A DNA stretch of 60,000 nt from Lytechinus pictus. Taxonomy: Eukaryota. The notes below the pieces were generated by a model, which did no database searches, was not told the DNA's origin, and saw nothing but the letters and a program-made list of their open reading frames with translations. The translations under genes were made by a program, and so were the position numbers. Every line of letters begins with the position of its first letter. Positions within the stretch are counted from its first letter, which is position 1. This document shows positions 9,443 to 60,000 of this stretch, piece after piece. The stretch covers positions 16,308,001-16,368,000 of the forward strand of contig NC_087245.1 in the NCBI RefSeq assembly GCF_037042905.1. Direction: 5' to 3'.

Positions 9443-9816
9443 TTAGGCTTTGTGCTCCTTCTTCTTGATTAGATTACGAGCGGTTTCTGGAAGAGGCTCG
9501 ATTACAACATCGCCTTCGACTCTTGTTTCCCCTCCTTTTTTGTCCGTGGCAATGCAAATATATTTTCCGTCATCGGCCATGACAAGCTCTTGAAAGACGA
9601 TGGCGTAGGTACCAGCCTCCGGTGAGTCTTCCTGCGAGACACGGACGCCGTCAAACTTGATATCAACCTCGTCTCCATATTCGCCTTCGTCGTCAGCTGT
9701 GCAGTGCTTCCACTTGATGCTGGCTAGGTCTGCGGGGTTGTCAATCTCGACTTCCAACCTCTCACCGCTGGCTTCCAGCACTTGCGTGGTCTCGGGAAGG
9801 GCCTTGGAAAACAGCA
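9443..9816 (-). CDS. Acidic single I-set Ig-domain protein (telokin-like, 126 aa with exon 1), terminal exon
   Basis: ttctttatacacag|TG acceptor; LFSKAL start, IKWKH Trp and DDGKYICIA motif; GC-rich coding-like composition; TAA at 9445-9443; no signal peptide or TM segment. Confidence 0.88.
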
Positions 9817-12679: not shown

Positions 12680-12686
12680 CACTCAT
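12680..12686 (-). CDS. Start-codon micro-exon (ATG AGT G) of the single-Ig protein; whole exon 12711-12680
   Basis: tttttcgacag| acceptor, CAAAATG start context, G|gtaagt donor; phase 1 matches exon 9816. Confidence 0.75.
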
Positions 12687-16633: not shown

Positions 16634-16742
16634 ATACTACTACTACTACTACTACTACTACTAATACTACTACTACTACTAATACTACTACTACCACTAC
16701 TACTACCACTACTACTACCACTACTACTACCACTACTACTAA

Positions 16743-16811
<69 letters not shown>

Positions 16812-17015
16812 CACTACTACCACTGTTACTACCACCACTACTACTACTGCTGCTACTACTACTACTACTACTACTAATACTACTACTACCACTACTACTA
16901 CTACCACTACTACTACTACCACCACTACTACCACTACTACTACTACTACTAATACTACTACTACTACCACTACTACTACCACTACTACTACCACTACTAC
17001 TACCACTACTACTAA

Positions 17016-17084
<69 letters not shown>

Positions 17085-17205
17085 CACTACTACCACTGTT
17101 ACTACCACCACAACTACTACTGCTGCTACTACTACTACTACTACTAATACTACTACTACCACTACTACCACTACTATCGCTACTACCACCACTACTACCA
17201 CTACT

Positions 17206-17250
<45 letters not shown>

Positions 17251-17296
17251 GCTGCTGCTACTACTACTTCTTCTTCTTCTTCTACTCCTACTACTA
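16634..17296. repeat. (CTA/CCA)n compound microsatellite
   Basis: About 660 bp of trinucleotide repeat. Confidence 0.97.
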
Positions 17297-23231: not shown

Positions 23232-24902
23232 TATATAAGACAAAAGAAATAGGGACATGGACATCACATCATCACCTTTCCCATACTCTTTTTTCTTAAT
23301 GTTTTCATATTTAAACCGTAGAGCATAGACCAGCCCTTGCCCTTTAGCACCGATTTCCTCTTACACAATTATTTACTTTGGCAAAATTAGTTCCTGATTT
23401 GTCTCTTTATTCGTCTACCATAAATAGATAAAACAGTACCCAAAGCATCACTTCATTTTCGTCGAGTTTACTTTGCTGTCGTGTCCCTAGTCCCTCTTAT
23501 TTTAAGAGAAGCATACCTTATTACAGTCTGTTAGTCTTTTCATAAAACAAAGCCCCCTCCCTTCACCTCTCCTGCATGTCATATGGTAATTATGAATAAA
23601 GAAAAGGTGATATTAATTGCCACCGACATCTAACAACATTCCATCCTGTTCTGAAAGCTATATCCTATCATCGAAGTCACTGACCTTTCTACCACAAGCC
23701 GCATATATAGAGTATGGACGAGAGCGGTATGACGGAGTATGGGATAAGAATTACCTCCAAACGGCGAATAGAATCCTTAACTTCTAAATATGGAATGACA
23801 CATGGGCTTGTTTGATAAGATCGGAGCTGAAAGGAGACGCCAAGAAGTCTCTGGCTCAAGTTCGCCTTTATTTTTTGTTGAGTGTTTTCTTTCTTCTTTT
23901 GGGGGCAACGAATTTCTTAATCAAGGTATGTCGTGTCGTTTGAAGAGATTATAAGTTTCATGATCCGTCAATTTCCATTTCAATATAATTTCCCCTTTAT
24001 TTCTATCTGTATACACATTCATCACACATGACCACCCTAACCCACGCACACGCGTTCATTGATAATTAGCGGGTTCATTCGCTTCTTCCATCTATCCCCT
24101 CTTTCTACATTGTGTCCCTCATTGTATTTTTTCTCTCGACAACACACTTTTGTTTCTCCAACACACAATGCCAAAATACTCAAAATACTTTGTTTCTCGT
24201 TTTATCACGTCCAAAGAAAAAATATGTCTGTTAAATTATTATTTTTTTTACTATCGCAGGTTTGATTTCAAAATCAAGCAATTTTATTGCCTTTTTTTTT
24301 AGAGCAAATGTTAAAAAGAGAATGTGCGAAATAAAATCCTTCTGTTTTTAATCTATGGACTCTACCGAATCAAGGTTTTCTTTTACATATAATGTTTTAT
24401 TGCGAAATGGGCGGTTCGTTCAAATATTTGACTAATTATGTCCATCAACATCAATACCACGATATTATCTTAGGCTCTGATGCCTTTGGATTGAACCCCA
24501 TACCTCGTATTTTCTTGATCCAAGACATCTCTAAAATAGTATTAAGCTGTTGGGAATATCATCAAATGAAATTTAATGGGTCACAAGCCTCTCCCTAAAA
24601 CGGATATCACTTCCATTTTCCGTCGGTAGGGGGCTCCCAATCATTTCATCGACGGTGAGCTAATGAGTGGAGCACGATCAGGCCTTATCTACACTACATG
24701 AAACCAGGGAGTACCCGGGGAGTACTTTCAAAGTCCTTGATGAAACCAATGAATTTGGTAAAGTTTGTGTGAGCCGATTAAGTGGTGCAATAGGGGAAGG
24801 AATCGTGGGACATATTTTATTCTGTAACTTCAATAAAGTCATACCCTTCTTAAAGAAGCATCCCTTCTACCTGCAAATAAACAAGTTCCAAAGAGGGAGA
24901 AA

Positions 24903-25421
24903 ATATGCAACTATCTCCTCAAATCCTGATAACTGGTGGCTATAAATCCATTATTAAATGCAGTTTTTAAAAATCTCTTGCTTGTGAAGATATGCAACTA
25001 TCTCCTCAAATCCTGATAACTGGCGGTTATAAATCCATTATTAAATGCAGTTTTTTAAAATCTCTTGCTCGTGAAGATATGCAACTATCTCCTCAAATCC
25101 TGATAACTGGTGGCTATAAATCCATTATTAAATGCAGTTTTTAAAAATCTCTTGCTTGTGAAGATATGCAACTATCTCCTCAAATCCTGATAACTGGTGG
25201 CTATAAATCCATTATTAAATGCAGTTTTTAAAAATATCTTGCTTGTGAAGATATGCAACTATCTCCTCAAATCCTGATAACTGGTGGCTATAAATCCATT
25301 ATTAAATGCAGTTTTTAAAAATATCTTGCTTGTGAAGATATGCAACTATCTCCTCAAATCCTGATAACTGGCGGTTATAAATCCATAATCAAATTCAGTT
25401 TTTAAAAATCTCTAGCTTGTG
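24903..25421. repeat. 87-bp minisatellite, 6 near-identical copies
   Basis: ATATGCAACTATCTCCTCAAATCC... recurs at 24903, 24990, 25077, 25164, 25251, 25338. Confidence 0.97.
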
Positions 25422-26535: not shown

Positions 26536-28775
26536 TCACATATCTATGCTGTCTTGTCTATCTGTCGACGGGCTCATACCAGAACTAAAGCAAGTGTCAC
26601 TTATGTTCCCATTGGCTCCATTATCAGGAGGATGGCTTCCGTCAATCGTTCGCCTCATCTCTTTGGTAAATGAACAGTGATCATGTAACCGGTCTGAGGG
26701 CACTAAACAGTTTCCACCGTCCTCTGGTCTCGTATCATCGGGAATTACTTTCGACGAGTTTTCTGTCATAATTCCATCATCCTGAGGATCATTGCCGTTA
26801 TCCTCATTCAAACAGCTATTAGAATGATCTGTACCATTTCCTATTTTGTCTTCATGGCCGTCAATCGTACCGTTTAACATATGAGGTGCTCTCTGGTCAA
26901 TTGTATGCTCCGGAAAGATATCCGTATCAAATTGTAGATTATGTAGTCTCTCTGTACTATGCGGATAATGGTTTCCGTGTTCTTCTAAACTGGAATCGCT
27001 GAAATCTTCAGAGTCGATTGGAGAAGACAGTCTGTCGCCATCGGGAAACTGCTGAAATTTATCTTCTTGGTGGGCCTGCAGAGAATCGATAGATCCGGCA
27101 TGAGATGGAAAGTCACCGCATGCTTGCCCATTGTCATTGTGTCGAGGACGACGCAGAATGGTCCGACCTTGCAACCTGCCATGAATGTCATCATCGCTGG
27201 AAGATGAATCTGTTGAATGGTCACGGTTCCTTCTCCTAATCGATAGTGTCCTTAGAAGGGGATTCCGTGATGGTCTTGAATATCTAGGTGGATACAAACT
27301 ACCGAAACTGTGCCTCCGCTTTCCATCATAATTGTGAATATGTGTAATATCATCAACCGAGTCCAGTGATCTTGTGACAGGTAGGGGCCTCCGTGGCACC
27401 CTTTTCCTCGTCAACTCTTGGCTGAACAAACTTTGTTTTAGCAAATCACAGAGCGGTGTTCTTTTGACTTTCTGACCAGTGATTGCACTTCTTCCAAATA
27501 ACGCTTTCCGAAGACTGTTGTTATTATTGTTTACATTTTCCTCTTGACCATCCGCCACTTGTTCCACTTGAGGAGCTTGGGTAGTACTTTCATTTTCCAT
27601 CCCCTGATCACGAACAGTCACCGCTATATTTCCCACTAGTTCTGACATTACCTTCAGCGAATCCTCAAGACTACACTGTCCCCAGATGTTACCTTCACTT
27701 TGAATCCTTGATACGTTGATATTCACATCTGATCCATCGATATATTCCCCATTGCTGTCTGACATATGTAGAAGATCCCCCTTGCTAAACTTTTCTTTTC
27801 TACGATGAGATGGAGTACCCCTTCTAGAGCTCAAACTTCCTGCATCTGATTCAGAATCGCCGAATTTTTGAACCAGTGTGTCCAACTTTTGACGCAATTT
27901 TTCTTCCGTTTCATTCTCATTCTCATCATAAGAAGTCAGAGTCAGCAGATCATCGATTATGTCTAGACAGGAATCCACCTTTTCAGTAAGCTCATCGGCC
28001 TTCTCAAGATCTAACCTGACACGTTCTGCATTCTTCGAATGTATGGGAGACTTCTTTCTTCGACTAGATGGTCGTTTCTTTCTAGATGACTTACTTCTCG
28101 GGAAACCATTAACCTCGTCCAAATCAATGAACTCGGTGATGGCTTTGTCAGCTGATGGTAGTGAATGGCTGACTTTTGTTGGTGATTTAAGATGGTTGCG
28201 ACGAGAAGTCCTCCGCTTTGAACCTTTATGATGTTTGAGCTCGCTTATATTGTCTCCTTCAGGTGTGCCCAAATAGACTCTCTTATCAAATGGATCATCA
28301 TCCTCACCTCGTGGTCCTTCTGCTGAAACATAGGCCTCCGAGCTGTTCGTTTCACTGCGCCTACGGGTCACACCGTCATTGCTGGTCACACTTAGTCTAT
28401 CATCGTACATATTCTGCTGGAATTCTCTCGGATCGTACGTGGACAAAACTGAGTTTAGTATGTCATCCATATTTCTGTTGGTTATTTCACCAGAGTTTAG
28501 TTGATAACTTTGAGTCGTACCTGCAACAGTGACATCTTTCACCGTGGTATCAACCCCTTCTTCATCAGACTTGTTCCTGCTGACCTGGTCAAAGGTTTCG
28601 CTGTTTGATTGATTTAAATCATTATTTGGAACAACGCTCCCTTCATTGCCAATCTTTGATGGTACGACAGTTTCGGTTTCTCCGATAAACTGTCTGAATA
28701 TTTCAGGTTCTGTGATTACCAGCATCGGAGTTCTCTGTTTCACTTGTCGACTATCTTCTGCCCAACAAGTTGAAT
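26536..28775 (-). CDS. Probable terminal coding exon, Ser/Arg/Asp-rich low-complexity tail ending QDSIDM*
   Basis: ttttttttcag|AT acceptor (phase 1) in frame with the 735-aa ORF; TGA at 26538-26536. Confidence 0.85.
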
Positions 28776-29880
28776 CTGAAAAAAAATTATATGAATGTCT
28801 TAAAAATAATTTACCTAGCAGCTCAGACGAGTATGTGTAATCTGTAAATAAGGGATTCGGAAACGTGCGTTTATACCTATATCTTATTCATGTGCGGTAC
28901 AATTCCGTAATGAATAATATTTGCTCTACTGGTTACCCTTACAAACATATTCTTTTAAATTATTATTATTTATTTTTTGACATTTGGGAGTGTTATGTCA
29001 TGATTTATAGGGCATTTAAATATATGTATCTTGCTAACAGACAAAGACAAAATTTATATTTCGACCTAACCATAATTAACAACTGTTTGCCAAACACTTG
29101 GGGATTGTTGAAATTTCGGCTTTGCCAGTCTCCGATTTGTTGAACTAAATGTGAAAATATCTGGCTAAGCAAGATATAATATGTGAGTACATGTATATAA
29201 TACATGCACGTAATTACTCTTTTTGCAATAATATAGTAGCCGCAAAAATGGACAAGGCAATACCTTAGATGTGGATTGATGTACATAGAGGACCACAGTG
29301 TTATTTTTGTTATTAGTTCAAAACCTATGGGTATTATTAAATTCAAATTCAAATTCAATTCGGTTTTATTCAACAATACTCATCAAAAAGTCCGAAGACT
29401 AACAATGTGAGTTTACAATAAAAAAACATATAACAGAGAAAAAAAAAAAAATACATAACATGCAGTGGCCATTAAAGAAGAAAAAAATGTATTATGTTTA
29501 AAATGCAATAGTATAACAAGAAATATTACAACACCTTTGGTTAATACTTTAAAACTCTTTTGTATTGTGTTCAATCTCTTAGGCGTAATTAACACCACGT
29601 GAAGTGGTCCTCTACGGGTGCCAACTGGTGTCAGAGTAACACCCGAGGTTTTAATAGCCCTTGGAAATAAAATAATTCTTACCCTAGTAACTATCGGGTT
29701 AGTGGGCTTTACCCATATCAAAGAGATTTCATGATTAATCGACAATTGCAAATTCATTTTCTTCAATTAAGTGCAGACTCCTACAAAGAAAATATGCATT
29801 TCATTGATTGATTGGTGGAGTAATTAAGGGGGAATTATAAAAATGGTAAATATGAAAATCAAGATTGAAAACATTCCTAC

Positions 29881-30087
29881 CTTGCACTTCCAAAAGGCTG
29901 ACACAGAGCACGATTCCCTTGTCATTGGCGGCACTGCAGACATACAAACCAGCATCAGAGGGTATGATGTCCCGGATGTGAAGACAATGAATGCTACCTT
30001 CAACTCTGAGAGTGACGCGGTCATCACCATGGTTACTTGTGATATGGGTGTCATCTTTTGACCATTTCACTTCCGGGAGTGGCTCAC
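29881..30087 (-). CDS. Exon encoding the second half of I-set Ig domain 2 (GEPLPEVKWSKD...SDAGLYVCSAANDKG)
   Basis: Canonical I-set motifs; gtttaag| acceptor and G|gtagga donor; phase 1->1. Confidence 0.92.
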
Positions 30088-31079: not shown

Positions 31080-31122
31080 CCATCAACGTCAGCACTCTTA
31101 GACTGTTGAACTGGCCCAGAAT
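31080..31122 (-). CDS. Linker micro-exon (DSGPVQQSKSADVDG)
   Basis: actttccaag| acceptor, GG|gtgagt donor; phase 1->2 bridges its neighbours exactly. Confidence 0.75.
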
Positions 31123-31431: not shown

Positions 31432-31668
31432 CTCGTTCCTCGACATCGAGTTGAGCGGAAGAGAATGCCTGACCTTGGGGGTTGATTGCTACACATGCGT
31501 ATTCGCCTTTGTCCTCGAACTTGACCTCGACAATGTCCAAGATAGACACCAATGCGCATGCGTCATCATTGTTGTCTTCGCCGTAGTCTGTGATTTTCAG
31601 ACGGTTGTTCCTCTCCGGTCTGATGACCTTACCGGAAGCAAACCAGCTGATGTCAGGTCGAGGTGAGC
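31432..31668 (-). CDS. Exon encoding the second half of I-set Ig domain 1 (GSPRPDISWF...EDKGEYACVAINPQG)
   Basis: G-x-P-x-P-x-I-x-W and D-x-G-x-Y-x-C-x-A-x-N-x-x-G motifs; canonical splice sites; phase 1->1. Confidence 0.92.
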
Positions 31669-36196: not shown

Positions 36197-36535
36197 CATG
36201 AAAATGTTTTCCATTGACGTAGCTCGTCGATGTTGATTGCAAACGACTGGTGTCGACATCATCTTCTCGGTCTCGGGTTCGTCGGCTGACTGGAACGGTG
36301 GTCAATGACGTCGGAGAACATGGCATAGGGCTGTTGCTTATGTTAACATGTCCATTCCTTTCTGTAGTTGCCATAGTAGTCGTAATGAGTCTTTCGATGT
36401 CAACTTCATCCTGATTTTTCAGCAACGACGCCGTGGATGACGAGGGAAGTATTGGAAGTTGATTGACATCGACGTAGTGAACGGATGCTGAGCTCCTAAA
36501 ATCGTGGTTGAGGGTGAACTTATCACCTTTGGCAC
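36197..36535 (-). CDS. Large Ig/IQ protein exon (GAKGDKFTLNH...KHFH)
   Basis: ttttacatgtag| acceptor, G|gtgaga donor, 339 nt open, phase 1->1. Confidence 0.8.
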
Positions 36536-37357
36536 CTACATGTAAAATAAGTAAATTGCAGAATTAGCGTGACCATGGAGCAAGAAATAAATTTCACAAA
36601 TATCAAATCCCTGAAGTTTGACAAAAAATTATTCGATTTTAAAACTCTTTCTCATTATCATATTAGCTTACATGTTATGCTATCATTTTTCCTGTACCTG
36701 AAAAATCATTGTATAACACTTTATTTCACGATTCATTTGATAGGTTCCAATAGAATAAACCTTCAATGCTTTTGAAGTCGTGTATGATTCCATGTATATG
36801 TCAGTAAATATTTTTCATATCGACAACGTAAGTAACTCCATTAAAACAAACCAGAACTCATTTGGTGTTTATAAAATGTCTCACTTCAATAAATCAAATT
36901 TTGTGCCCCACTAGTGATTCAGATTCTATATCACGAGTGAAAAAAAAATGAATTGTGAAACCTTAATTGATTTTAATTGAGGATATAAAGACTGCTCATG
37001 AACGGAAGATGTATCCATTAGTAAATAATCTAAAGGACATCTTAGTATTGCTTTCAATGAACTCTGTCACATGATCATTTTGACAAGTAACTGTAAGAGT
37101 TTAGACAAATGATTAGATATATTTGCTTTGATATGCCTTATTGCCGTGTGAGTCAAAAAGTCACAGACTATAAACATTGACTAGAAAGAAACAAGAATTG
37201 CAATGTATCTCAGTGTAATACAAGAGTCACATCAGCGAAACCGTCTTAAGACCGATCGAATTTATTACGTTATTACCGATTGCATAATATCGGATGGGTT
37301 GGAGTCGGTTTCGTTGGTATGGCTGTGGCACTACCCCCCATGTCTTGAAGAAACACG

Positions 37358-38159
37358 CACTGCAAAAACTCCAGTGTTGATTTAACACCAGCTCGGAATA
37401 TATATATGTCCACACCAGAGAAGTATTGAAACAACAACAGTTTGGACAAACTTGTTTTTATAAGAAAAAGAAAAATCAGACAAGTTGATAGGTGAAAGTT
37501 TGAACAATATTGGACAAACAACAAGAAAGTTATGAATTTTTAAAAGTTGTAAATATTGGTAATCACTATACCCATGGAGACTTCAAATTGGCCGCATATG
37601 GGGTGTCATAGTGATGTAAGGCAAGGACTACTCTTCCATGTATTCCAATACATATTATGGCTAAAATGTTATTTTTTCCAAAGGTTTTATTTCAAGTTAT
37701 ATTTTTCTTTCATGAGGACATAAAACAATATACTACCTGGATTACATTTAGATTACTGCCCCAGGGGAATGGGTACTTAGGAGAAAACCACAAATCCCTG
37801 ATAATAAAGTACATGGCCTATGGGAAAGTTGTCCTTGCCCCTTGTCATAATTTACTTACCCAGTTGCCAATTTGAAATCTACATACTATTAGTGATCTCA
37901 ATTTTAAAGCAGCTATAACTTTCTTATTGCTTGTTCGATTTCTTTCAAACTTTCACCATTCTGTTTAAATTATTTTTATCCTTCCCAACACAACATTTTA
38001 TGGCCAAGGCTGGATTCCCCTTTTTAATACTAATTGGTGTTGTATAAACACCTATCTGGTGTTAGACCAAAAGGAAACTGATGTTGTTTAAAACTTCTCT
38101 GGTGTGGACATATATAGATTTTGGGCTGGTGTTATATCAACACCAGACTTTTTGCAGTG
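37358..38159. mobile_element. EnSpm-type MITE (same family as 49803-50044) interrupted by a nested insertion
   Basis: CACTGCAAAAA...TTTTTGCAGTG ends, 2-bp TSD CG, arms match the 49803 copy. Confidence 0.85.
37447..38027. mobile_element. Kolobok-like (TTAA-targeting) element, left-truncated, nested in a MITE
   Basis: Ends GGATTCCCCTTTTTAA; internal imperfect inverted arms resembling 56412-56998. Confidence 0.65.
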
Positions 38160-38251
38160 CGTCTTTTCTCGACTGTCCCTTCACGATATCCTGATCCTAT
38201 GAGTAGTCAAAAACTCCACACGGAAATTCATCCTGAAATAACCTCACTTAC

Positions 38252-38276
38252 CTGATGTACAGCACGCTGATCCCAT
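38252..38276 (-). CDS. Candidate alternative first coding exon MGSACCTS(G)
   Basis: ATCATGG context; consensus donor CAG|gtaagt; phase 1, compatible with exon 36535-36197. Confidence 0.6.
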
Positions 38277-39439
38277 GATCAAACACCAAACCCTCAAACC
38301 AATCCTGACATGAACTCAGCACAATTCATTCAGACAAAAATATACGCACGTCCGAATAACTCTCTTCAAATTGGGCTTATTTCCCCCGACATATCATGTG
38401 TAGCCTATCAGGTAAACCGCAATAGTACGTATTCCAATCGGATAATCGGATAAAGTCGATTTAGCGGTTGGTAACCCGCAGACTAGATAGTTATCGCTGA
38501 ATGCAGCGCATGAAACAGTAAATAGATCGAAAAGCAGCACAAATCCTATTTCTGTCTACCGTTATGATTTTAGTCGATAATATATAATTTCAACGCTAGG
38601 GTGAACTTTGCGTTCACACCTGTCAACCTGTAACAGGTCACAACTCAACACATTTGGATGAGAACCTGCCAGCTGACGCTCTAGTTGGAACCAATTCGCA
38701 TACGCTCACAACAAATACAATAATGTCAATAAATGTTGTGGAATAATTCGTTTTCCCATATATTTCTACTGTCTATTGAATCCCGCTTCTTTTTCATTGG
38801 ACAATGATTATATCGCATTTTGACGCCTCGTTAATGTCCAGGAAATGACTCGAAATTTAGGGTCAATAGATGGGCCAAGCTATCTAGCGGTTAATATGGC
38901 AACGGAAGATGTAGGGTATATAGCGTCTTCAGAGAAGAGGATTAGAGGGATTGGATGTTTCTTGTCATGGTCAGCGAATGTTTATCTTCAAGGAAATTAG
39001 CACTTTTCCGTTCAGACTTAACGGAGATATACGGTCAGATGGCGAGACCTCAAGTGCAACGAGATAGCTTGAAGAGCACGTCCCCAGAAGAATCCCCCAA
39101 AACACCTCTCCATTTAAAATGAATCTACAGCATCCAAACTACATCTGTTGATGATTTCGTCATTCATTACACTTACTAAATCACTACCAATAAAGGATCG
39201 TCCTATCATCATGCCTATAAAGCCCTGTTTCATTAATTCAATCGACTTATCATTTCCATCACATTGACGTCAGAAATGTAAGAATTTAAGATAAAAGAAA
39301 ATGAATTAAAAGGATTACTAATTTCTTCAAAGATTTTCATTGATCGCTTATTCTATATCTGTTACATCACAGTAATTTTTTAAATGATTAAAATGGGTGT
39401 TATTTTGATTACCACAATTATAGTAGGAGTCGTAACGTT

Positions 39440-39479
39440 ATAGTAGTAGTAGTAGTAGTAGGAGGAGGAGGAGGAGGAG

Positions 39480-39545
<66 letters not shown>

Positions 39546-39568
39546 AAATAGTAGTAGTAGTAGTAGTG

Positions 39569-39614
<46 letters not shown>

Positions 39615-39667
39615 CAGGACTAGTAATAGTATAGGAAAAAGTAGTAGTATAGAAGAAGAAGAAGAAG
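39440..39667. repeat. (TAG)n/(GGA)n/(GAA)n microsatellite
   Basis: Seen directly in the sequence. Confidence 0.95.
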
Positions 39668-39835: not shown

Positions 39836-40028
39836 CTTCAACTAAAGTGGGCTGGACGGGGCAAGCACGAGTTGCACTAATGGCGTCATTGAGGTCTGTG
39901 ACTCCACCGCCATCATCGCAAGGTATTCTGGGAGAGAAAAGCTCAGATGCCGCCGAGACAGTCTTTTGGGAGTCGTGATCATCATCGCTCGGATGTGAGC
40001 CATTTTCTGCTATCCTTTGCGATTCCGT
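39836..40028 (-). CDS. Large Ig/IQ protein exon (TESQRIAENG...PTLVE)
   Basis: attctgtag| acceptor, open frame, G|gtaagt donor; phase 0->1. Confidence 0.8.
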
Positions 40029-41040: not shown

Positions 41041-44000
41041 CTTATCACAGAATGTTCCATGTGGCTCGCCTATTTTGTTATCTTTTGATACTTCGTCATT
41101 AACCTTTGCCAGTTCTCCTCCACCGTATCTATTAGAAGACTGCATCATTCGTTCATCATCGTCAGTGTTGCCATGGCAATCATCAGATACCATCGATGCC
41201 TTGGTTTCCTTTCTTCCCTTTTCACCGCGATCTAAAAACGAGGTTGATATCATCGGCATTGTTTGAAGCTTCGAACCAATTGAAGTGGCAGCAGCCGACT
41301 TCAGACGTGTGAGAGATTTCTTAGACTCGCCCTTGCTGGGAGTCTCACCCGTCTTCGAAGGAGTTCTTTTTCTTTTGAATATGTTCTGAATTTTCCTTGT
41401 CACCTCTTTTACTTTAGTATCATTCAGGTCTATGTCAATCTCAGTGGTCTGTTTTGATGATGTCGAGACGAGATTACCTGTGTTTGAATTAAAGATTTCA
41501 GGTCGTGCTTTTGCCGTATCATTGTTTGTACTTTGAAATATTTTCTCAAGTTCTTCGCATTTCATTGAAGATGTTGGTGCTTCCGATCTTTCAGTTCTAT
41601 TATAGACTTTGGTATCAAGCTCATAATGATTTAACCCAACACTAGCGGATTCCACTTTTCCATTGTCATTTCCAATCAAGGTCCCATTCTTTTTCTTCGA
41701 GGTAGCACTTTCATTCATATTCCGGCATGTCAAATTATTAGTATTAGTTTCCACACTCTTTCCAGGTACATCTTTCTTAGTAGAGGTAGTTTGTGTCTTA
41801 TTTTTGCTAGTCTTCTTTTTCCAAAAGGCACTTTGAAGTTTGAAAACGGTTTTCCGAACATCGGGGTCTGATAAATCAATATCTACGTCCACATCTGTCC
41901 CAGACTTGTTGGTTTTATTCGTATCCGATGGCGCATCTGTTAGGTCAACAGGGAAATTTGCATCATTTGATTCTGGTAAATTTTGATTATTCAGCTTCTT
42001 CAATTCTAAATCCGTTTCATTTATTAGCACTATATCCTGTAGTTCCTCATTGGTTGGAAACCTCGTAGGAGACGGTAGAGATTTAAGTTTTTCAGTTACT
42101 TCCTTTACTTCTGCATCTAGGAGATCGATGTCTATGTCATCGCCCAAATTTGCTTCTTTAATCGATGAAGCTCGTTTCATCGGGTGCTTCTTTTCAAGCG
42201 GTGATCGAAAATTGGCGTTAGCATCTGCACGAGTTATGTTTTCCCTTTCCGGTGAGGTTGGCTTAGGATTACTTTCTAGGTGTCCTGAAAGCTTTTCATT
42301 GACAATAACCACACCTTTGTATGTTTGGTAGCCTACAGTAGCAGGTGTGTTTCCAAGAGTAACGTCTATTGGCTCTAAACTATTAGTTGATGATATATTT
42401 CCAGTTGGGTCTTTAAGTTGCTGTTCGTTTGACAAGATGTTTTTATCCAGTTCATCATCAGATATTACGACATTCACTGTAGTGTCGGCAAATAAAATCG
42501 GAGGGCAATCAGTTCTATCAGAATCAGAAACTTTTTGCATTTCTTTGGTAATAGGAGTATCTGGAGGTGATGCGAAATGGTTTAAAGAATTTGCTTTATT
42601 TGCTTGTACTTTTTTGCATGCTTTGTCCTCTACCGATCCTTTGCTTCTCTTGCTGTGCAACTTCTTACGACGAAAGACTTGCTGAATCATCTTCGATGCA
42701 TCTTGAACTTTAGGATCTTTAAGATCAATATCAGGTTCCAGGACCGTACCGGGACCAGACTCTTGCAGGTTTTCTTCTGAGGTATCCATTGGTTGCTGGT
42801 CATTTCCCGTGATACATCTCAGTTTCTTATCTAGATCTTCTCCTTCAGATGTTTCTTTGGAGAGTTCCATACTCGGATTCACCACCTCGCTTGGAGACGA
42901 AGGACCAAGTGGCGCACGCGTGTTGTCTGCTACTTCTTTGATGAAAACTTCTTCTGAAAGAGCAATGCCCGGGTTTCCATTTTCAAATGGTTCTAATTCT
43001 CTGTCATTTTCTTCAACAGATTGAACTGAGAGTCTATTATCTGTTAAAGATTGTTCTTGCTGTTCTATTAATGAGGTGGCGTAAGGCTGATATTGTGAAA
43101 CTGATTTTTGTCGTGAAAGTTTCTTGCAAACCCTCTCTTTTGCTTTTTCTTTAGTCTTGAGCGAATCAGGAGGAATGTTATCACCTCTTACATTTTTGTG
43201 AGCTTGAGAATTGGCGAAATCGATTGGAAGTGAATGGTGTCTGATCATCTGAACCCCTCTGTTCTCTGTGGGAGTGTCAACCTGAAATGGATTATGATTT
43301 TCCAAAGACGCTGAACTACAAATGCCTAAAGATCTATAGGAAACCGAATCTGATTCGGCTCGCATTCTCTGCATTGATCTGAACTTTTTTGACCCATGGA
43401 GTTCCCTTCTCTTCCGAAAGGCCAATTGCATTCTTTTCGTTGCTTCTAATACATCTGGATCTGATAAATCAATATCGATGGGTTCTACAATAGATTCTTG
43501 ATTTCCCATTTTCTCGTCCTTTATGGTCCTGCAATTTTCTTTTGCACCTTGATTACCATTCGGGGTATTGGGATGTACTTCACTATCATCTTCATCAACA
43601 CGTTTCTTAACAATAGTTATGTTTTCATAATGCACGAATTTGAGCTGTCCAAGGGCCATCGGCCTTGCAGGGATAGAAGGTCCATTTCCAGTCAGAGAAA
43701 CGAGACCAATGTTATTAATTTGCGTATCAGGATGATGGTTATTGTCTTGTGGCAAACTGTACTCTGTTTTCTTTGAAGATGTAATTAGTTTCTGAAGACC
43801 TTCAAGAATTTGCCTTCTGTTTGAAGAAGATTGATCTAGAGAAGAAGATTCTGTCTTTAAAGAGGTTCTTATTTTCACATCAGATTCTTCTCTATCTACA
43901 CCCGAATCGGACGTGTAATTTGTTTGTTCTTTTTCAATCTGTGACTTGGCCTGTTCCTGGCACTGTCCTTTGTTGGAATGCAAACGATTCGTAGCATCTG

Positions 44001-45395
44001 ATTCATCAAGTGAACTATGGTTAGCATCGGTGTCCTGACAACCACTGTCGCTACTTGAATTGCCAGGTTGTCTTAACCGCCCACGGATCTTCATTCTCAT
44101 ATTCTCGAGCAGTTGACTTCTTTTATCTTCAGACCTCAGGGCCTTGTCAAAGGCCTCACTTTGAGAGGGATATGGATAGTCCCAGTATTCCGACCTCATT
44201 GCGTGAGTATCCATCATATCCTGGGCATAGTCACTTTGCTCATGGAGTCCTGGTATCTGCTCTTCAAGTCGCAAAGTGATCAACTCGTTCTTTTGGATTT
44301 GCACATCATCAAGTTCCTCCTTTTCTGCACTTGTCAATAAACGATGGAATGTTGGCAAGTTCTTAAAGTATTCCTTTCCTTCCACGTATCCGCTGAAATC
44401 CTCTTCGTATTGTGGTTCGAATCCAAATGATCCATCACTCCCTTGCGAAAGTCGTTTATATCCCTCCTTCTGGGGAACTGTTTTAACATCTGCAGTAGCA
44501 CCAGATATGTTCTCTACTCCCTCTTCTCCAGGTGAAGAAGTTTCTATTTTTCCATCAGAATGACTATCTAACACTATTTCACTATCTACCTCCTCTTCAA
44601 AAATTGTTTCATAGGCAGGAGAATTGCATTTTTCTACAGACGCTGTAATCGAATCTAGAACCCACAACGGATTGATCTCTGATCCAGATTCAAGGGAATC
44701 CGTACTGGTTTCCAACAATTCACCTTGATCTTTCGTGGCTGCCTCCTTTGGTTGATTTTGTTGTTCTTTCTCATCTTCTATAAACTTTTTGAGCTCACTG
44801 ATTGGACTTAATTCACTGCCAGAATTTTCTTCCCTGCTAGCTTCCATCACTTTTTCAGTTTCCAAAGAGCACGATTTGGAGTCTACAAATGATTCAGTCG
44901 AAAAATTTCCAAGAGTAGATTGACCGTTTGGGGAAACACTATCAATTTCAAATTGCACCCTTCCTTGTCGTCGTAGAGGTGAGCAATGTCTTGTTGTGTC
45001 TATATCAAGCGCCCTCTGTTTCCTCAGTGATTTCTCTTCAGATCCACCTCCATTCAAGGATGTCCTCTTCGATTTAGGATCCTCTGGTTCATGTCGTTTG
45101 AAGTCAATTTCACCATTTTCTTTTCCACTATGATAAAAAACACACCGATTGCACTCCTCCCCACTTGCTTTTAAAGCTCCCCTTGCGAATTTAGATCCTT
45201 GCGACACAGTCTTCGAGCCAGTTGGAATGTGTTCCACAGAGTTGCGAAACTTGACTTCCTTAGGATTCGGTAGTGAAGGTGAAATGGCAAGAAAAGCCTC
45301 TGAGCGATATCGAGGCTGTTTTAAGAGAGGTATCTTCATAGAAACAGTGGCATCGTGTTTGACTTGTACCGCAGCGATACTGTTTGCCGGAAGGT
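41041..45395 (-). CDS. Large Ig/IQ protein, giant exon (4355 nt; low complexity, five acidic-IQ motifs)
   Basis: 1471-aa ORF; acceptor ttcttgacag|AC (phase 1); donor AAG|gtaggt (phase 0). Confidence 0.9.
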
Positions 45396-45854: not shown

Positions 45855-45933
45855 CTTTTCGTCGATGGTTCAACGACACCTCGATGGTTACAGGTGATGT
45901 TTTGGGTGGCAAAACCCGTTGATCTGACTCCAT
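45855..45933 (-). CDS. Large Ig/IQ protein, coding exon 1 (MESDQRVLPPKTSPVTIEVSLNHRRK)
   Basis: Acceptor ttcttctatag, exon starts 45950; ATG in a strong ACCATGG context; donor AAAG|gtaata, phase 1, matching the giant exon. Confidence 0.75.
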
Positions 45934-46668: not shown

Positions 46669-46761
46669 CCTTATTTATAAAACCGTGAGTTCAAGGACCA
46701 TTTTATCCAGAAGGTCTTTGTTTTAATCGGTAGAATCATCTTTGGGTATGGTGTTCATCTT
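46669..46761 (-). other. Probable 5'UTR exon of the large gene, containing three uORFs
   Basis: ttttacacag| acceptor and AGG|gtaagt donor; stops in all three frames. Confidence 0.55.
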
Positions 46762-48041: not shown

Positions 48042-49802
48042 ATACCATCTAAAAAGGGGGAAGCGTATCCACAAAGCTTTGCAGTTTGACAAACTCAGTT
48101 TGTTCATTCTTTCAAATCAATCAAGAACCACCCCCATAAAAACAACATACTAGAGTTTGCGATATTGAGCCCAATGTGATTTATTTCATTCAGATTTTCG
48201 ACAGTCTTCCTCCGAATTTCAATTGTATCAAATATTCCAAAAGATGGATATTCATTTCTCTCCCTGTAACAAAAAGACATCATTTTCCCCTATGATTTCA
48301 TTGCAGGGATGAGGCCATACGAGCTCCTGTTATATACTGCACGACTCATTCTCTATACGTAAAATATTTCGTGTGTCGATTAATAGAAATGTAGCATAAC
48401 GGGTGAGTATAGGCTACCCCTATCTATCTTCCCAGTTCCACACCCTCATCCCGGCCCTTGGGTTATTCGCACCCTCGCCTTGCCCTCGGTCCCGATTACA
48501 ACTTGCGTGAATTAAATTTCCTGTAAAATTACAAATTACAATCTATTGCACTGCTATGCCGGACAATAATCAATTAGAAGGAAACCATAAAAGATTAAAT
48601 CGATTATCTATCTAGCCAAGAACTTGACGTGTGTCTGTCTTGAAGTTAAGTCTCTATAATATAATGGCCATACGCAAAAAATGTAAACTTTTACGAAAAA
48701 AAAATCGAAAGCGAAAGAGCGAAGCCCGTCATTGTTGCGCTTTTGCAATTGTATGGTGAACTTGAAGTAATTCGTTCTTTGATGATTTTCGTGGAAATTT
48801 TTATCAAAAAAATGTGAGTTTTCAAAATTTCTGAGTACGGGCATAAGCTTTGTCAATATAGATATAAAGTCATTGGATACATTGAATATATTGTCTTCTT
48901 TACTGTTCAGTTCCTACCGCAATGCGTGCAATCGTCATGCGAATATGGCACAGTTTTATAGATCTCAGTCACAACCCTCGGAGCTAGTTTGATTTCTTAT
49001 TTCCTAACACGCCTAGCTACATGCGTCTCATCGTCTTAACATGTGTTTATGAACTAGACCCTGCCCTAGGCTTAGCGTCTACGTTCAAAATAAACCCCGC
49101 CTGGTCGACGATGAAATTGTATTTCGTCAATATTAAGAGGGCAACTATTTACAGTTGTACACCTGCTTTTGCTAATTTTGGTTTTATATACTGCTTCGTT
49201 ATATATTAAAGCGGCTTATTCATTTTATCGATAGATGTACGCTGAAATGTTGTTGATATCAGACAGATTAGTATGATTCTATTACTGTAGTAAAATTACT
49301 GCTAATGATATTCAATATATTTTAAGTTTCTCGATTTGTTCAAAGTTGATTTTTGTTTTGTTTTCTCCTATGGTTATTGTAAAAAAAGAAACATATATTA
49401 CAGTAGACTAAAAACGTACATATATTATTTAATCAGTATTAGTAATAAGTTAGGCCTGGAAGAATGTTCTTTCTCCTGCTTTTTCTTTACCACAAGTTAT
49501 GTAGTTATCAATTGTCAATACTGATTGATGTAGGAATGTTATCTAAATGTGCGTCGGGCGAAATTATTATGTGAGAACAAACCATGTCAAAAATGAATTT
49601 CTGTAAGCTCGAAAAACATGTTTTCTCCAGAGCAGATTGGGAGTAGGTACAAATGAAATAAAGGTTCCAAATGTTACCCCAGTTTTTCGCAGTAATTGAT
49701 TAGGTTAATGGAAACCGTCCTCTCCAGTCTACAACGTTTAGAAAGACGTGGAAGTATAGTAACTAAACATGCTAAAAGATGCGATATGACTCCTTGTACT
49801 AA

Positions 49803-50044
49803 CACTGCAAAAACCTTGGTGTTGATTTAACACCAGTCCGGAATCTATATATGTCCACACCAGAGAAGTGTTAAACAACACCAGTTTGGTTTTGGTCTAA
49901 CACCAGATAGGTGTTTATACTACACCAATTAGTATTTAAACAGCATCAGTTTGATTCCAAACTGGTGTTGTTTCAATACTTCTCTGGTGTGGACATATGT
50001 AGATTCCGGACTGGTGTTAAATCAACACCGGGGTTTTTGCAGTG
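49803..50044. mobile_element. Intact EnSpm-type MITE
   Basis: About 85-bp TIRs with CACTGCAAAAAC ends, 2-bp TSD AA, internal ACACCA repeats. Confidence 0.9.
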
Positions 50045-50652
50045 AAGGAGTTATTATTTTTTCTACACTTGGCTCGATGGAAATACGGTCTCAAGGTGAC
50101 CCCATTTCAGGTGAGGTGAAGGGGAGTCTCATGTTTAATGATATTACCACGTATTAGGTACAGGTGTCTAACCGGGGCATTTATTAGGGCTTACCTTGAA
50201 CGAGGTCTACCTAGAGGATGTCATACTTATAGATATACAGCGGGTAGTGTCGGGTATAACTTTTAATGATTTTCTTATGTATCTCATTCTCCTTTGATTT
50301 CAATAATTTTAAAGAGAAGAACATGAACTGTGATGACAAGAAATTCAAAGTGACAACTAAAGTAGGCTTACGATAAAGCATGGTGTACTTGCCTTCAATT
50401 CAAATATAAAGAAAAAGACTATTCTTGAGTCTATTGACTTATACATGAATAGAATTCATAATCTTCATTATGACATTGTTTGCTGTATGAAGTTTTAATC
50501 ATTTTCGTTCATTTTTCTTCTATTTTCAGCAGTCTGTTGCCTTGTTATTTTCTTACTGGTTTCATTGTAAAATTCAAAGATACATATTCGATATGCATGT
50601 ATATTAAATAATCCATCAATTTTAAACAGTATATCCGATTAAATGAAATACT

Positions 50653-51124: not shown

Positions 51125-52039
51125 AGGTAACCAAAGTGAGTATGACTAATTGATGAAATTCTGGAGTTTGAAGCAGATTGCTGCAGTTGCTATAGTTACT
51201 TGAAGGTGTTTACGAAGAGAATGGCGGTCTTAAACTTGTCAAAATCCATTATTATCCATCACACTTATTTTTGTATTTTTTTTCATTACTTAAATCCTTT
51301 TAGGAAGCATAAAATTGTTACTTACCTTTTGATAATTGACATTGCAAGCTTTCCTGGGTTTTTATTTTTATTTTATTTGTTATGTGTTGTTGGGGGTCAA
51401 TGTTTCATTTTCTCACCACACTTGCACTTCCCTACTCTCAACTACAATGACAATTGCACTTGCATCAGCTTTCGATACATTACAAATTTTTTGCCGATAA
51501 CTTTTACCTATTATAATTATCTTGGAATATGAATAATTCTGAAACCAGACTTTTACTTTGACTTGTAATTCAAATTAGTGCATATTGTAATTTTTGCGTG
51601 AGCCATGTATACCTGAGTTAAAATTATTTCCTCATGTTGACACGTTTTCACCATTTTCTTCTGTGTATAGACGTTGTACATTGTATCTACATGTGTGTAA
51701 AATCCTTTATGGACAATAAAGTTATTCAATTCCATTCAATTCTCGCTTAATTTCATTTTTGATCGCTTGAAAATCTTAGGAGCAGGCTCATGTGACGCTT
51801 GTAAGTTATTCTACCTGGCTGCTTATAAAATGTAACAAGTGGAACGCCTCTGGCAGTCTCGCCTGCATTACGCAATTTAATATAGCAGCAGTGCTAACTT
51901 TGAAAACTACTATAAAATAATCATTAACAAAAACATCATTCATATAATGACATAATACCACGTTCATTGACCATAAATGACATTTGAACAGAGACTTAAG
52001 ACTGTCAACTACACCCATGTCCACATTTCATTCACTCTA

Positions 52040-52940
52040 TCCATAAACTTTCAAAGTTATGATGGCACTTCAACAATTACCCCAACATGGCCTAAGTTTA
52101 TTGACCTTAACTGACCTTTGACTTGGTTTTGTGACCTGAAACTCACAGAGGATGTTCAATGATGCTTGATTACTCTTATGTCCAAGTTTTATGAACTAGA
52201 TCCATAAACTTTCAGAGTTAGGATGGTAATTTAACATATACCCCCAACATGGCCTAAGTTTATTGACCTTAAATGACCATTGACCATGGTCATGTGACCT
52301 GAAACTCAGGCAGGATGTTCACTAATACTTGATTAACCTTATGTCCAAGTTTCATGGACTAGATCCATAAATTTTCAAAGTTATGATAGTAATTCAATAA
52401 ATACCCCCAACTTGACCAAAGTTCATTGACCCTAAATGACCTTTGACCTTGGTCACGTGACCTGAAACTCAGGCAGGATGTTCACTAATACTTGATTAAC
52501 CTTATGTCCAAGTTTCATGGACTAGATCCATAAATTTTCAAAGTTATGATAGTAATTCAACAAATACCCCCAACTTGACCAAAGTTCATTGACCCTAAAT
52601 GACCTTTGACCTTGGTCACGTGACCTGAAACTCGAGCAGGATGTTCACTAATACTTGATTAACCTTATGCCCAAGTTTCATGAACTAGGTCCATATACTT
52701 TCTAAGTTATGATGTCATTTCAAAAACTTAACCTTCGGTTAAGATTTTGAAAATAATTTTCCCAACATGGTCTAAGTTCATTGACCCTAAATGACCTTTG
52801 ACCTTGGTCATGTGACCTGAAACTCAGGCAAGATGTTCAGTAATACTTGATTAACCTTATGTCCAAGTTTCATGAACTAGGTCCATATACTTTCTAAGTT
52901 ATGATGTCATTTCAAAAACTTAACCTTAGGTTAAGATTTG
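52040..52940. repeat. About 163-bp tandem array (about 5 copies) inside the HINE-like element
   Basis: TCCATA unit starts at 52040, 52201, 52364, 52527, 52690, 52882; TGACCTTTGACCT motifs. Confidence 0.9.
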
Positions 52941-59918: not shown

Positions 59919-60000
59919 CGTCATGGACAGGATTCGAACCTGCGCGGGGAAACCCCATTGGATTTCGAGTCCAACGCCTTAACCACTCGGCCACCATGAC
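59919..60000 (-). tRNA. tRNA-Ser(CGA): tRNA-Ser, anticodon CGA
   Basis: GTCATGG/CCATGAC acceptor stem; D arm TGGCCGAGTGG; anticodon arm TTGGA-CT-CGA-AA-TCCAA; long variable arm GGGG-TTT-CCCC; GGTTCGAATCC T-loop; discriminator G; 82 nt. Confidence 0.97.

What the first reader, a model, noticed from the sequence alone, without database searches (positions are those of the whole stretch)
38252..38276. Alternative first exon MGSACCTS: promoter switch from calmodulin-binding array to lipid anchor
Inside an intron lies ATG GGA TCA GCG TGC TGT ACA TCA G|gtaagt. It has a good start context, a consensus donor and the phase needed by the next exon. Met-Gly followed by Cys-Cys is the established pattern for N-myristoylation plus S-palmitoylation. 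The resulting isoform of about 1150 aa would lose all five IQ motifs, keep both Igs and the tail, and gain membrane targeting. One locus would then give a Ca2+/CaM-responsive form and a membrane-anchored form (inference). The exon is too short for the ORF track.
Basis: partly seen in the sequence, partly recalled or inferred. Interest (0 to 1): 0.7.

Follow-up and report, generated by a model that had tools for sequence, protein, structure and literature searches.

The report
Sea urchin lipid-anchor alternative first exon
A tiny alternative first exon in a sea urchin scaffold-protein gene most likely gives one version of the protein a fatty-acid membrane anchor in place of a long front end; this is a real but familiar trick of animal genes.

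Summary
The exon is real. ATG 38276, 25 coding bases, donor after 38252 and phase 1 into the exon at 36535 check out; chance gives 0.005 such sites per 60-kb strand. Lytechinus variegatus RefSeq isoform X2 of LOC121424958 already starts with this exon (7 of 8 residues identical). One public assembly holds a minor contig covering 38552-38252 that ends as a splice to 36535 predicts, though no junction was printed. The short protein is 1150 aa with two Ig domains and no transmembrane segment. Its N-terminus fits the relaxed myristoylation motif, so dual acylation is likely but untested. The calmodulin half is weaker: 0 of 5 repeats reach Pfam IQ, four fit the PEP-19 acidic/IQ register, one is degenerate, and no transcript or database protein holding them was found; RefSeq X1 starts downstream of all five. 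The promoter is unmapped, and the motif was not found at an N-terminus outside Lytechinus. The gene resembles the front half of crinoid UNC-89/obscurin-like proteins. Swapping a domain for a lipid anchor by first-exon choice is known (SAP97/PSD-95, AKAP12, HK1S, KChIP): new member of a known kind.

The parts
38252..38276 (-). Coding part of the alternative first exon: MGSACCTS plus the first base of Gly9 (predicted myristoyl-Gly2, palmitoyl-Cys5/Cys6)
   Evidence: L. variegatus P0001 starts MGSACCTA, 7 of 8 identical
38277..38552 (-). Transcribed 5' leader of that exon (at least 276 nt), with five upstream ATGs (38511, 38397, 38392, 38329, 38311), all out of frame and closed before 38276
   Evidence: X18 record 6 covers 38552-38250 at depth 2.2; ATG list
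38579..38586 (-). TATA-like element 34 nt upstream of the contig's 5' end; candidate core promoter, unproven
   Evidence: only TATAWAW on the minus strand in 38250-39400; about 2% chance in a given 16-nt slot
36536..38251 (-). Intron 1 of the short form (gtaagt ... tag); holds a high-copy MITE-like element at 37351-38166
   Evidence: depth in the thousands over the element
36197..36535 (-). First shared exon (E4, 339 nt, phase 1 to 1), low-complexity
   Evidence: X18 record 4 and X4 record 8; 105 of 113 residues identical to P0001
33471..33534 (-). E4b, 64 nt, carries the EYETA motif
   Evidence: gap in the spliced contigs, candidate search, 21 of 21 identical to P0001
32496..32644 (-). E5, start of Ig domain 1
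31432..31668 (-). E6, rest of Ig domain 1 (I-set)
   Evidence: Pfam I-set 39.4 bits, cut-off 23.7
31080..31122 (-). E6b, 43-nt linker exon
   Evidence: gap in spliced contigs; 13 of 14 identical to P0001
30561..30709 (-). E7, linker and start of Ig domain 2
29881..30087 (-). E8, rest of Ig domain 2 (I-set)
   Evidence: Pfam I-set 43 bits
26536..28775 (-). E9, last coding exon (746 codons to the stop), mostly low-complexity, with a conserved helical motif at about 27850-28050 shared with crinoid UNC-89-like proteins
39836..40028 (-). E3, the competing upstream exon (193 nt, phase 0 to 1) that also joins 36535
   Evidence: present in L. variegatus X1, P0007 residues 74-137; not in the stretch laid with reads
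41041..45395 (-). E2, 4355-nt open exon with five DIDL repeats starting at 43476, 42732, 42132 (degenerate), 41883 and 41436; skipped by the short form
   Evidence: 1451 open codons, P about 7e-44 by composition; repeats; only its last 73 residues are in a database protein
45855..45933 (-). E1, predicted first coding exon of the long form (ATG 45933, phase 1)
   Evidence: sequence only; no transcript or homologue support

Best explanation
A second, internal transcription start near 38550-38560 makes a first exon of about 300 nt whose last 25 bases encode MGSACCTS and splice to the shared exon at 36535. The product is a 1150-aa, mostly disordered scaffold with two Ig domains. Inferred mechanism: Met1 is removed, N-myristoyltransferase adds myristate to Gly2, the weakly bound protein meets membrane palmitoyl transferases, and Cys6 and/or Cys5 are palmitoylated, which holds it on the cytosolic face of Golgi or plasma membrane. 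Transcripts from upstream use E3 (and probably all of E1-E2) instead, lack the anchor, and carry four PEP-19-type acidic/IQ-like repeats that may hold calmodulin largely independent of Ca2+. Shown: exon, frame, length, use in a congener, exclusion of E2/E3. Indirect: the junction in this species. Inferred, with my odds: own promoter 0.75, myristoylation 0.8, palmitoylation 0.7, full repeat-bearing long form 0.8, calmodulin binding 0.6. The confidence given is for 'real first exon whose product is lipid-anchored and lacks the repeats'.
For: Pattern rare by chance, 0.005 per strand. RefSeq X2 of L. variegatus starts with this exon and X1 with E2-end/E3, both joining the same E4. X18 record 6 (329 nt, depth 2.2) matches 38552-38250 and stops matching at the intron; it has 28 letters beyond 38252, the same tail as record 4 has beyond the E8 donor, a junction that X4 record 8 spans directly, and record 4 starts at AG+E4. 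Excess depth at the E4 start (about 25 over 30 nt) points to a second, larger upstream path outside the laid stretch, as expected for E3. Positions 2, 3, 5 and 6 fit the motif MG[^DEFRWY]X[^DEKR][ACGST][KR]; a Ser6-to-Cys G-alpha-o peptide still bound membranes and went more to the plasma membrane; the similar MGSLCSR peptide bound Golgi (PMC9018777, passages). No hydrophobic segment that could serve as another anchor (highest 19-residue hydropathy 1.41, inside an Ig strand). A profile of two hemichordate DIDL-IQ motifs finds the E2 frame at E 8e-12 among 1431 six-frame segments.
Against: No junction was printed: 15 of 177 joint rows were shown, all from repeats, and record 6 has under the 31 letters the tool asks for to call a bridge. 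It is one contig in one run at about a tenth of the E4 contig's depth. Five upstream ATGs precede the start. Position 6 is not Ser/Thr and position 7 is not basic; Cys5 alone was a poor palmitoylation site in the MGNTC peptide. Identity of 7 of 8 residues to the congener is what the 89-100% identity of the other exons predicts, so it does not show selection. Diadema models (3 proteins) start inside the E4-equivalent region without the motif; of 164 proteins examined, 7 start with MG and only P0001 has the Cys pair. Pfam IQ hits 0 of 5 repeats. Two searches for longer forms found nothing among 4652 and 2773 candidates (the tool calls this weak evidence).
Confidence: 0.6

Rival explanations
1. 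The exon and the anchor are real, but there is no trade against a calmodulin array: the main competing transcript starts near the 3' end of E2 (as RefSeq X1 does) and has no repeats, or the diverged repeats no longer bind calmodulin. The choice is then only anchored versus soluble.
For: P0007 (X1) begins at long-model residue 1406, after the last repeat at 1347-1370; no database protein with the repeats was found; 0 of 5 Pfam IQ hits, no Gly after the FR; no solved-structure match to the repeat profile better than E 0.9.
Against: E2 is open for 1451 codons (P about 7e-44) and in frame with the part that X1 uses; four repeats keep Gln and Phe in the PEP-19 register and three also the Pro; hemichordate UNC-89/titin-like proteins carry the same DIDL-IQ motif, Pfam-positive in P0085.
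Confidence: 0.2
2. The exon is transcribed and spliced at a low level but yields little or no functional protein: a young, genus-restricted start damped by upstream ORFs.
For: Depth 2.2 against 22.1 in one run (depth is a poor measure); five upstream ATGs; not found at an N-terminus outside Lytechinus.
Against: Used in two species with the frame, start context and donor intact; a chance intronic start would rarely spell MG..CC (0.16 per 60-kb strand even without a donor).
Confidence: 0.1
3. It is the first coding exon but not the first exon: a non-coding upstream exon splices into it and skips E1-E3, so the choice is made by splicing, not by a promoter.
For: The contig's 5' end lies beside AG dinucleotides at 38555, 38551 and 38545; contigs cannot show a transcription start (tool statement); a probable non-coding exon exists at about 46669-46761.
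Against: Those AGs have only 6-8 pyrimidines in 20 nt against 10-16 for the 12 modelled acceptors; record 6 has no unmatched letters at its 5' end; a TATA-like element lies 34 nt upstream.
Confidence: 0.08
4. Chance motif in intron sequence, not an exon.
For: ATG-to-donor mini-exons occur about 29 times per strand by chance; no junction row was printed.
Against: RefSeq X2 starts with it; contig stops matching at the donor with the expected tail; full pattern 0.005 per strand.
Confidence: 0.02

Closest known systems
Lytechinus variegatus LOC121424958 isoform X2 (XP_041476802.1) and X1 (XP_041476794.1), 'uncharacterized protein'
   Same: Orthologue: X2 starts with the same exon and matches the 1150-aa model at 999 of its 1100 residues; X1 uses the E2 end and E3. 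The exon is thus already in a public annotation.
   Different: No function or lipid anchor is named in the record; X1 lacks all five repeats; X2 ends about 50 residues earlier. No paper in the library holds the locus id.
SAP97 and PSD-95 alpha/beta isoforms
   Same: Alternative N-terminal exons give either a palmitoylated Cys pair or a protein-interaction module (L27), with different localisation (PMC6365469, passages). Closest logic: domain traded for lipid.
   Different: Palmitoylation only, no Gly2 myristoylation; unrelated sequences; tested by experiment.
AKAP12/gravin alpha, beta, gamma
   Same: Large scaffold, separate promoters, only the alpha N-terminus is myristoylated and retargets the protein (PMC7670535, passages).
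   Different: Isoforms differ only at the very N-terminus and share >95% of sequence; here about 1540 residues are exchanged for 8.
Sperm hexokinase HK1S (MGQICQ) and KChIP N-terminal variants
   Same: Isoform-specific N-terminus with Gly2 myristoylation plus Cys5 palmitoylation moves HK1S to the plasma membrane (PMC4736023, abstract); KChIP alternative 5' exons give cytosolic, myristoylated, palmitoylated or transmembrane forms (PMC3973911, passages).
   Different: An enzyme and a channel subunit, unrelated to this gene.
UNC-89/obscurin-like proteins of crinoids (Anneissia XP_033098278.1, Antedon XP_071942485.1) and Saccoglossus (XP_006823010.1)
   Same: Same order EYETA, Ig domains, then a helical motif that scores 111-113 against 41-43 for shuffles (0 of 200 reach it) in both crinoids; best non-urchin hit of Ig1 among fetched proteins is the Anneissia protein; Saccoglossus has DIDL-type IQ, Ig, EYETA. 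C. elegans unc-89 uses three promoters (PMC12812942, passages).
   Different: The urchin gene stops after E9; no SH3, RhoGEF, PH or kinase was found in the 26 kb downstream or in the Lytechinus and Diadema models scanned. The crinoid models have no DIDL-IQ repeats and no MG start. Ig2 does not pick the crinoid proteins as best hits.
PEP-19/PCP4, neurogranin and obscurin IQ motifs
   Same: Hydrophobic-Asp-Ile-Asp-hydrophobic, Pro seven places on and Gln seventeen places on match PEP-19 residues 30-34, 37 and 47 (PMC5122967, passages).
   Different: No RG after the Phe, Pfam IQ not reached; arrayed in a 1450-residue exon rather than a single motif; binding untested.

Membership tests
Alternative first exon (alternative promoter isoform) | Start codon, donor and phase that fit a shared downstream exon, with no upstream in-frame coding continuation | tested here: met
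Alternative first exon (alternative promoter isoform) | Spliced transcript joining it to the shared exon | tested here: met
   RefSeq model in the congener; indirect contig-length evidence here, no printed junction
Alternative first exon (alternative promoter isoform) | Own transcription start site | tested here: inconclusive
   contig 5' end 38552, TATA-like at 38586, poor acceptors nearby; contigs cannot map starts
Alternative first exon (alternative promoter isoform) | Tissue- or stage-regulated switching between starts | not testable with these tools
   the two raw-read runs had under 0.6x depth on the exons
N-myristoylated, S-palmitoylated (SH4-type) N-terminus | Gly at position 2 after the initiator Met | tested here: met
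N-myristoylated, S-palmitoylated (SH4-type) N-terminus | Relaxed NMT motif at positions 3, 5, 6 ([^DEFRWY], [^DEKR], [ACGST]) | tested here: met
   Ser3, Cys5, Cys6 against the motif quoted in PMC9018777
N-myristoylated, S-palmitoylated (SH4-type) N-terminus | Preferred Ser/Thr at 6 and Lys/Arg at 7 (preferences, not requirements) | tested here: not met
   Cys6, Thr7; PMC2133112 and PMC9018777 passages; G-alpha subunits also lack the basic residue
N-myristoylated, S-palmitoylated (SH4-type) N-terminus | Cys within the first ten residues and no signal or transmembrane segment | tested here: met
   Cys5, Cys6; highest 19-residue hydropathy 1.41; no dedicated signal-peptide predictor was run
N-myristoylated, S-palmitoylated (SH4-type) N-terminus | Covalent lipid and membrane localisation | not testable with these tools
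   needs labelling, mass spectrometry or imaging
IQ calmodulin-binding motif (Pfam PF00612) | Reaches the Pfam IQ score | tested here: not met
   0 of 5 repeats, also none for the whole exon; control P0085 gives 4 stretches
PEP-19-type acidic/IQ motif | Acidic DIDL plug, Pro37, Gln47 register | tested here: inconclusive
   Gln and Phe in 4 of 5, Pro and Gln together in 3 of 5, repeat 3 has neither; profile bits 21.7, 13.7, 7.8, 4.1, -0.1
PEP-19-type acidic/IQ motif | Binds calmodulin | not testable with these tools
UNC-89/obscurin | I-set Ig domains | tested here: met
   two I-set domains
UNC-89/obscurin | SH3-RhoGEF-PH cassette and/or kinase domains in the same gene | tested here: not met
   none in the window by tblastn at E<=5 with P0114, P0156, P0066; none in P0001, P0004; exons beyond the window cannot be excluded
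UNC-89/obscurin | Orthology to crinoid UNC-89-like proteins | tested here: inconclusive
   shared helix motif and order; no reciprocal search, tree or synteny test

The most novel reading that the evidence does not exclude
The gene is the front half of an echinoderm UNC-89/obscurin locus that lost or split from its SH3-RhoGEF-PH half in sea urchins, and first-exon choice toggles it between a soluble PEP-19-like calmodulin reservoir with four sites and a dually acylated membrane scaffold. The anchor may be old: all 7 Antedon isoforms carry LGNCCTPG 85 residues before EYETA, the place where the urchin peptide sits (125 before), and G-x(1-2)-CCT occurs at only one other locus among 172 fetched proteins (520,903 residues). 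If the crinoid motif can also be an N-terminus, this would be a lipid-anchored obscurin-family isoform kept across echinoderm classes, which my searches did not find described.
Probability: 0.12. Interest if true: 0.6.

Novelty: new member of a known kind. Interest (0 to 1): 0.33.

Why it matters
If the inference holds, it gives an uncharacterised sea urchin gene a concrete, cheaply testable working model: one Ig scaffold, either tethered to membranes or loaded with calmodulin, chosen at the promoter. It would add an invertebrate case to the known first-exon lipid-anchor switches and a possible link to the obscurin family, for which the review I searched mentions no fatty acylation. It does not open a new class of mechanism, and the exon is already in the RefSeq annotation of a sister species.

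Tried and rejected
No whole genome is held for this window, so paralogues and exons beyond it were not examined. The run search listed 24 runs, no holder on record as RNA; shares of 0.14-0.34 are confounded by the intronic repeat and were not used. Raw-read runs X21 (about 6% read) and X24 (about 25% read) had under 0.6x depth on the exons and say nothing on the junction; repeats swamped the joint and loose-end tables. The laid stretch ended at 39390, so E1-E3 were not covered by reads. My first exon draft had wrong E5 and E7 borders and gave stops; a 69-nt exon idea was replaced by the 64-nt E4b. Searches for longer homologues were empty, as was the metagenome scan (596 pattern matches, 0 confirmed). 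The 1.84-billion-protein search was dominated by generic Ig proteins (4085 hits, best 150 listed). Atlas look-ups gave only scores of 0.75 (one cluster 10% IQ) or nothing. The repeat profile matched no solved structure below E 0.9. A resemblance by eye between the long form's first residues and the crinoid N-termini (IEV...YRSE) failed shuffle tests (230 and 354 of 1000 shuffles as good) and is rejected. The EYETA region alone is only marginal against shuffles (5-9 of 200, and the best alignment was at EYETA in 1 of 3 proteins). The sigma-70 scan is irrelevant to an animal gene. The first 'obscurin' paper search matched 'obscuring'. Three look-ups of earlier scan findings returned nothing. No structure or complex prediction was run. 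No supplements were opened; those of PMC9018777 (lists of G-alpha N-termini) could bear on how Cys5/Cys6 behave.

Full report
Observation. The minus strand reads ATG GGA TCA GCG TGC TGT ACA TCA G at 38276-38252, followed by gtaagt. The start has A at -3 and G at +4, and an in-frame stop lies upstream at 38318. The acceptor at 36535 needs phase 1, which the exon supplies. It is the only MG-x(0-4)-CC start on either strand of the window. In 200 resampled strands that keep trinucleotide statistics, MG..CC with a phase-1 donor appeared 0.005 times per 60 kb, MG..CC alone 0.16 times and any ATG-to-donor mini-exon 29 times. The peptide content, not the splice signal, is what exceeds chance.

Gene model. 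The gene runs on the minus strand: E1 (ATG 45933), E2 (45395-41041), E3 (40028-39836), then shared exons E4 (36535-36197), E4b (33534-33471), E5 (32644-32496), E6 (31668-31432), E6b (31122-31080), E7 (30709-30561), E8 (30087-29881) and E9 (28775-26536). The long model has 2684 aa, the short one 1150 aa, each with one terminal stop. Spliced contigs of runs X18 and X4 join E4 to E9 and their gaps fixed the two small exons. E5-E6 and E7-E8 encode two I-set Ig domains.

Is the exon used? A search with E9 gave 6 hits among 7998 candidates; the best, at 89% identity, is Lytechinus variegatus LOC121424958 isoform X2, XP_041476802.1, which starts MGSACCTAGAKGDKF and matches the short model at 999 of 1100 residues. 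Isoform X1 of the same gene starts with the last 73 residues of E2, then E3, then the same E4. The window is therefore most likely another Lytechinus species (inference), and both 5' ends are in a public annotation. These are computed models; that an 8-codon first exon is rarely modelled without aligned transcripts is my recall. In the reads laid here, X18 record 6 (329 nt, depth 2.2) matches 38552-38250 and then stops matching instead of running into the intron; the two bases past 38252 are GT in both the intron and E4. It has 28 letters after 38252. In the same run record 4 has 28 letters after the E8 donor, a junction spanned directly by X4 record 8, and records 3 and 2 overlap by 30; record 4 itself begins at AG+E4, the suffix shared by this exon and E3. 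This is the signature of a splice to 36535, but it is indirect: the 26 unlaid letters were not shown, 15 of 177 joint rows were printed and none was this one, and the record falls short of the tool's 31-letter rule for a bridge. Excess depth at the start of E4 implies another upstream path of depth above 20 from outside the laid stretch, so the short form looks minor, about a tenth, in that one sample; depth is a poor measure. The two raw-read runs barely covered the gene.

Is it a promoter? The contig's 5' end is 38552. The only TATAWAW between 38250 and 39400 starts at 38586, 34 nt upstream (about 2% chance in a 16-nt slot). AG sites near the 5' end have 6-8 pyrimidines in 20 nt against 10-16 for the modelled acceptors. 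This favours a start site over a spliced-in leader but does not map it. Five out-of-frame ATGs precede the start in this leader and may lower output.

Lipid anchor. PMC9018777 (passages) quotes the NMT motif MG[^DEFRWY]X[^DEKR][ACGST][KR]. The peptide fits positions 2, 3, 5 and 6 and misses the basic residue at 7, as G-alpha subunits do. The classical preference for Ser/Thr at 6 (PMC2133112, passages) is not met. In the G-alpha-o peptide series, Cys at 6 kept membrane binding and raised plasma-membrane share, Cys5 alone in MGNTC was poorly palmitoylated, and MGSLCSR went to Golgi. So myristoylation is likely, palmitoylation likely at Cys6 at least, and Golgi versus plasma membrane is open. The protein has no transmembrane-like segment. 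None of this was tested on this protein.

The calmodulin side. E2 holds five DIDL repeats. None hits Pfam IQ, whereas the Saccoglossus control does four times. A profile from two hemichordate DIDL-IQ motifs finds E2 at E 8e-12, with 21.7, 13.7, 7.8, 4.1 and -0.1 bits for repeats 4, 1, 2, 5 and 3. In PEP-19 numbering (residues 30-34, Pro37, Gln47 from PMC5122967, passages; Phe50 recalled), four repeats keep Gln and Phe, three also Pro, and repeat 3 keeps none. PEP-19 binds apo-calmodulin and tunes Ca2+ kinetics, and the obscurin IQ binds calmodulin with or without Ca2+ (PMC2196875, passages), so a calmodulin reservoir is a better guess than a Ca2+ switch. More important, the repeat-bearing form itself is unproven: X1 starts at residue 1406 of the long model, after the last repeat, two searches for longer proteins were empty and E1-E3 were not covered by the reads. 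In its favour, E2 is open for 1451 codons (P about 7e-44) and in frame with the part X1 uses.

Family. Two crinoid proteins, Anneissia 'muscle M-line assembly protein unc-89-like' and its Antedon counterpart, share the order EYETA, Ig domains and a helical motif of E9 (scores 111 and 113, 0 of 200 shuffles), then continue into Ig, SH3, RhoGEF and PH domains. No such domains were found downstream in the window or in the Lytechinus and Diadema models scanned. I read the gene as related to the front half of echinoderm UNC-89/obscurin-like genes, but it fails the RhoGEF test and orthology was not established. Outside Lytechinus no protein starts with the motif: three Diadema models begin inside the E4-equivalent region, and among 164 proteins 7 start with MG and only P0001 has the Cys pair. 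All 7 Antedon isoforms carry an internal LGNCCTPG at the equivalent place, the single Anneissia isoform does not; the pattern was chosen after seeing it and is a lead only.

Comparison and novelty. [quoted passage not shown] I found no paper with the locus id; of 13 listed UNC-89/obscurin papers one mentions myristoylation once (search listing), the obscurin review has no 'myristoyl' or 'palmitoyl', and none of the 15 listed of 568 echinoderm/Lytechinus/obscurin papers concerns this gene (search listing). The library lacks most subscription journals.

Verdict. A real alternative 5' exon, already annotated in a sister species, that probably supplies a dual-acylation anchor to a 1150-aa Ig scaffold. 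The trade against a calmodulin-binding array is plausible but rests on an unproven long isoform and diverged motifs. New member of a known kind; interest 0.33.

Noticed in passing
window 12680-12710 and 9443-9817, minus strand: A separate small gene downstream: an exon ending ATG AGT G|gtaagt, apparently spliced to an exon encoding one Ig I-set domain that ends in a stop (about 126 aa, telokin-like in size). Pfam I-set 20.3 bits, below the cut-off. It could also be a further piece of an obscurin/titin-like cluster.
   Followed up: partly
P0114 and P0165-P0170 (Antedon mediterranea), residue 922-929: Internal LGNCCTPG 85 residues before EYETA, resembling the urchin N-terminal peptide; could mark a hidden alternative start or an internal palmitoylation site.
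   Followed up: partly
window 37351-38166: MITE-like element with 80-nt terminal inverted repeats (86% complementary) 85 nt downstream of the exon's donor; very high copy in RNA runs. A related copy lies at about 49800-50045.
   Followed up: partly
window 41041-41259 versus P0007: L. variegatus X1 starts at an internal Met near the end of E2 (71 of 73 residues identical). Either a third 5' end inside E2 or a broken or partial model in that assembly.
   Followed up: partly
window about 27850-28050 (E9 residues 244-305): A conserved, probably helical motif shared by Lytechinus, Diadema, two unnamed echinoid-like records and crinoid UNC-89-like proteins, with no Pfam family.
   Followed up: partly
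P0004, P0005, P0008 (Diadema): Diadema models have one Ig domain where Lytechinus has two, and also end without RhoGEF or kinase.
   Followed up: no
P0113 (unnamed, 2583 aa): An Ig/Fn3/kinase giant protein that starts MGSVSSK, a textbook myristoylation motif; another possible lipid-anchored member of the titin/SPEG-like group.
   Followed up: no
window about 46669-46761, minus strand: Probable non-coding exon upstream of E1 (strong acceptor, gtaagt donor, short upstream ORF).
   Followed up: no
window 28748-29180: X18 record 3 runs from the E8-E9 intron into E9 (depth 2.4, 29 differences): retained intron or a further 5' end just upstream of E9.
   Followed up: no
window 59919-60000, minus strand: tRNA-Ser(CGA) gene.
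   Followed up: no
window 24899-25421, 52017-52939, 16635-17297, 39441-39631: An 87-nt tandem array (6 copies), a 163/192-nt array and long (TAC/TAG)n microsatellites that create spurious long ORFs.
   Followed up: no
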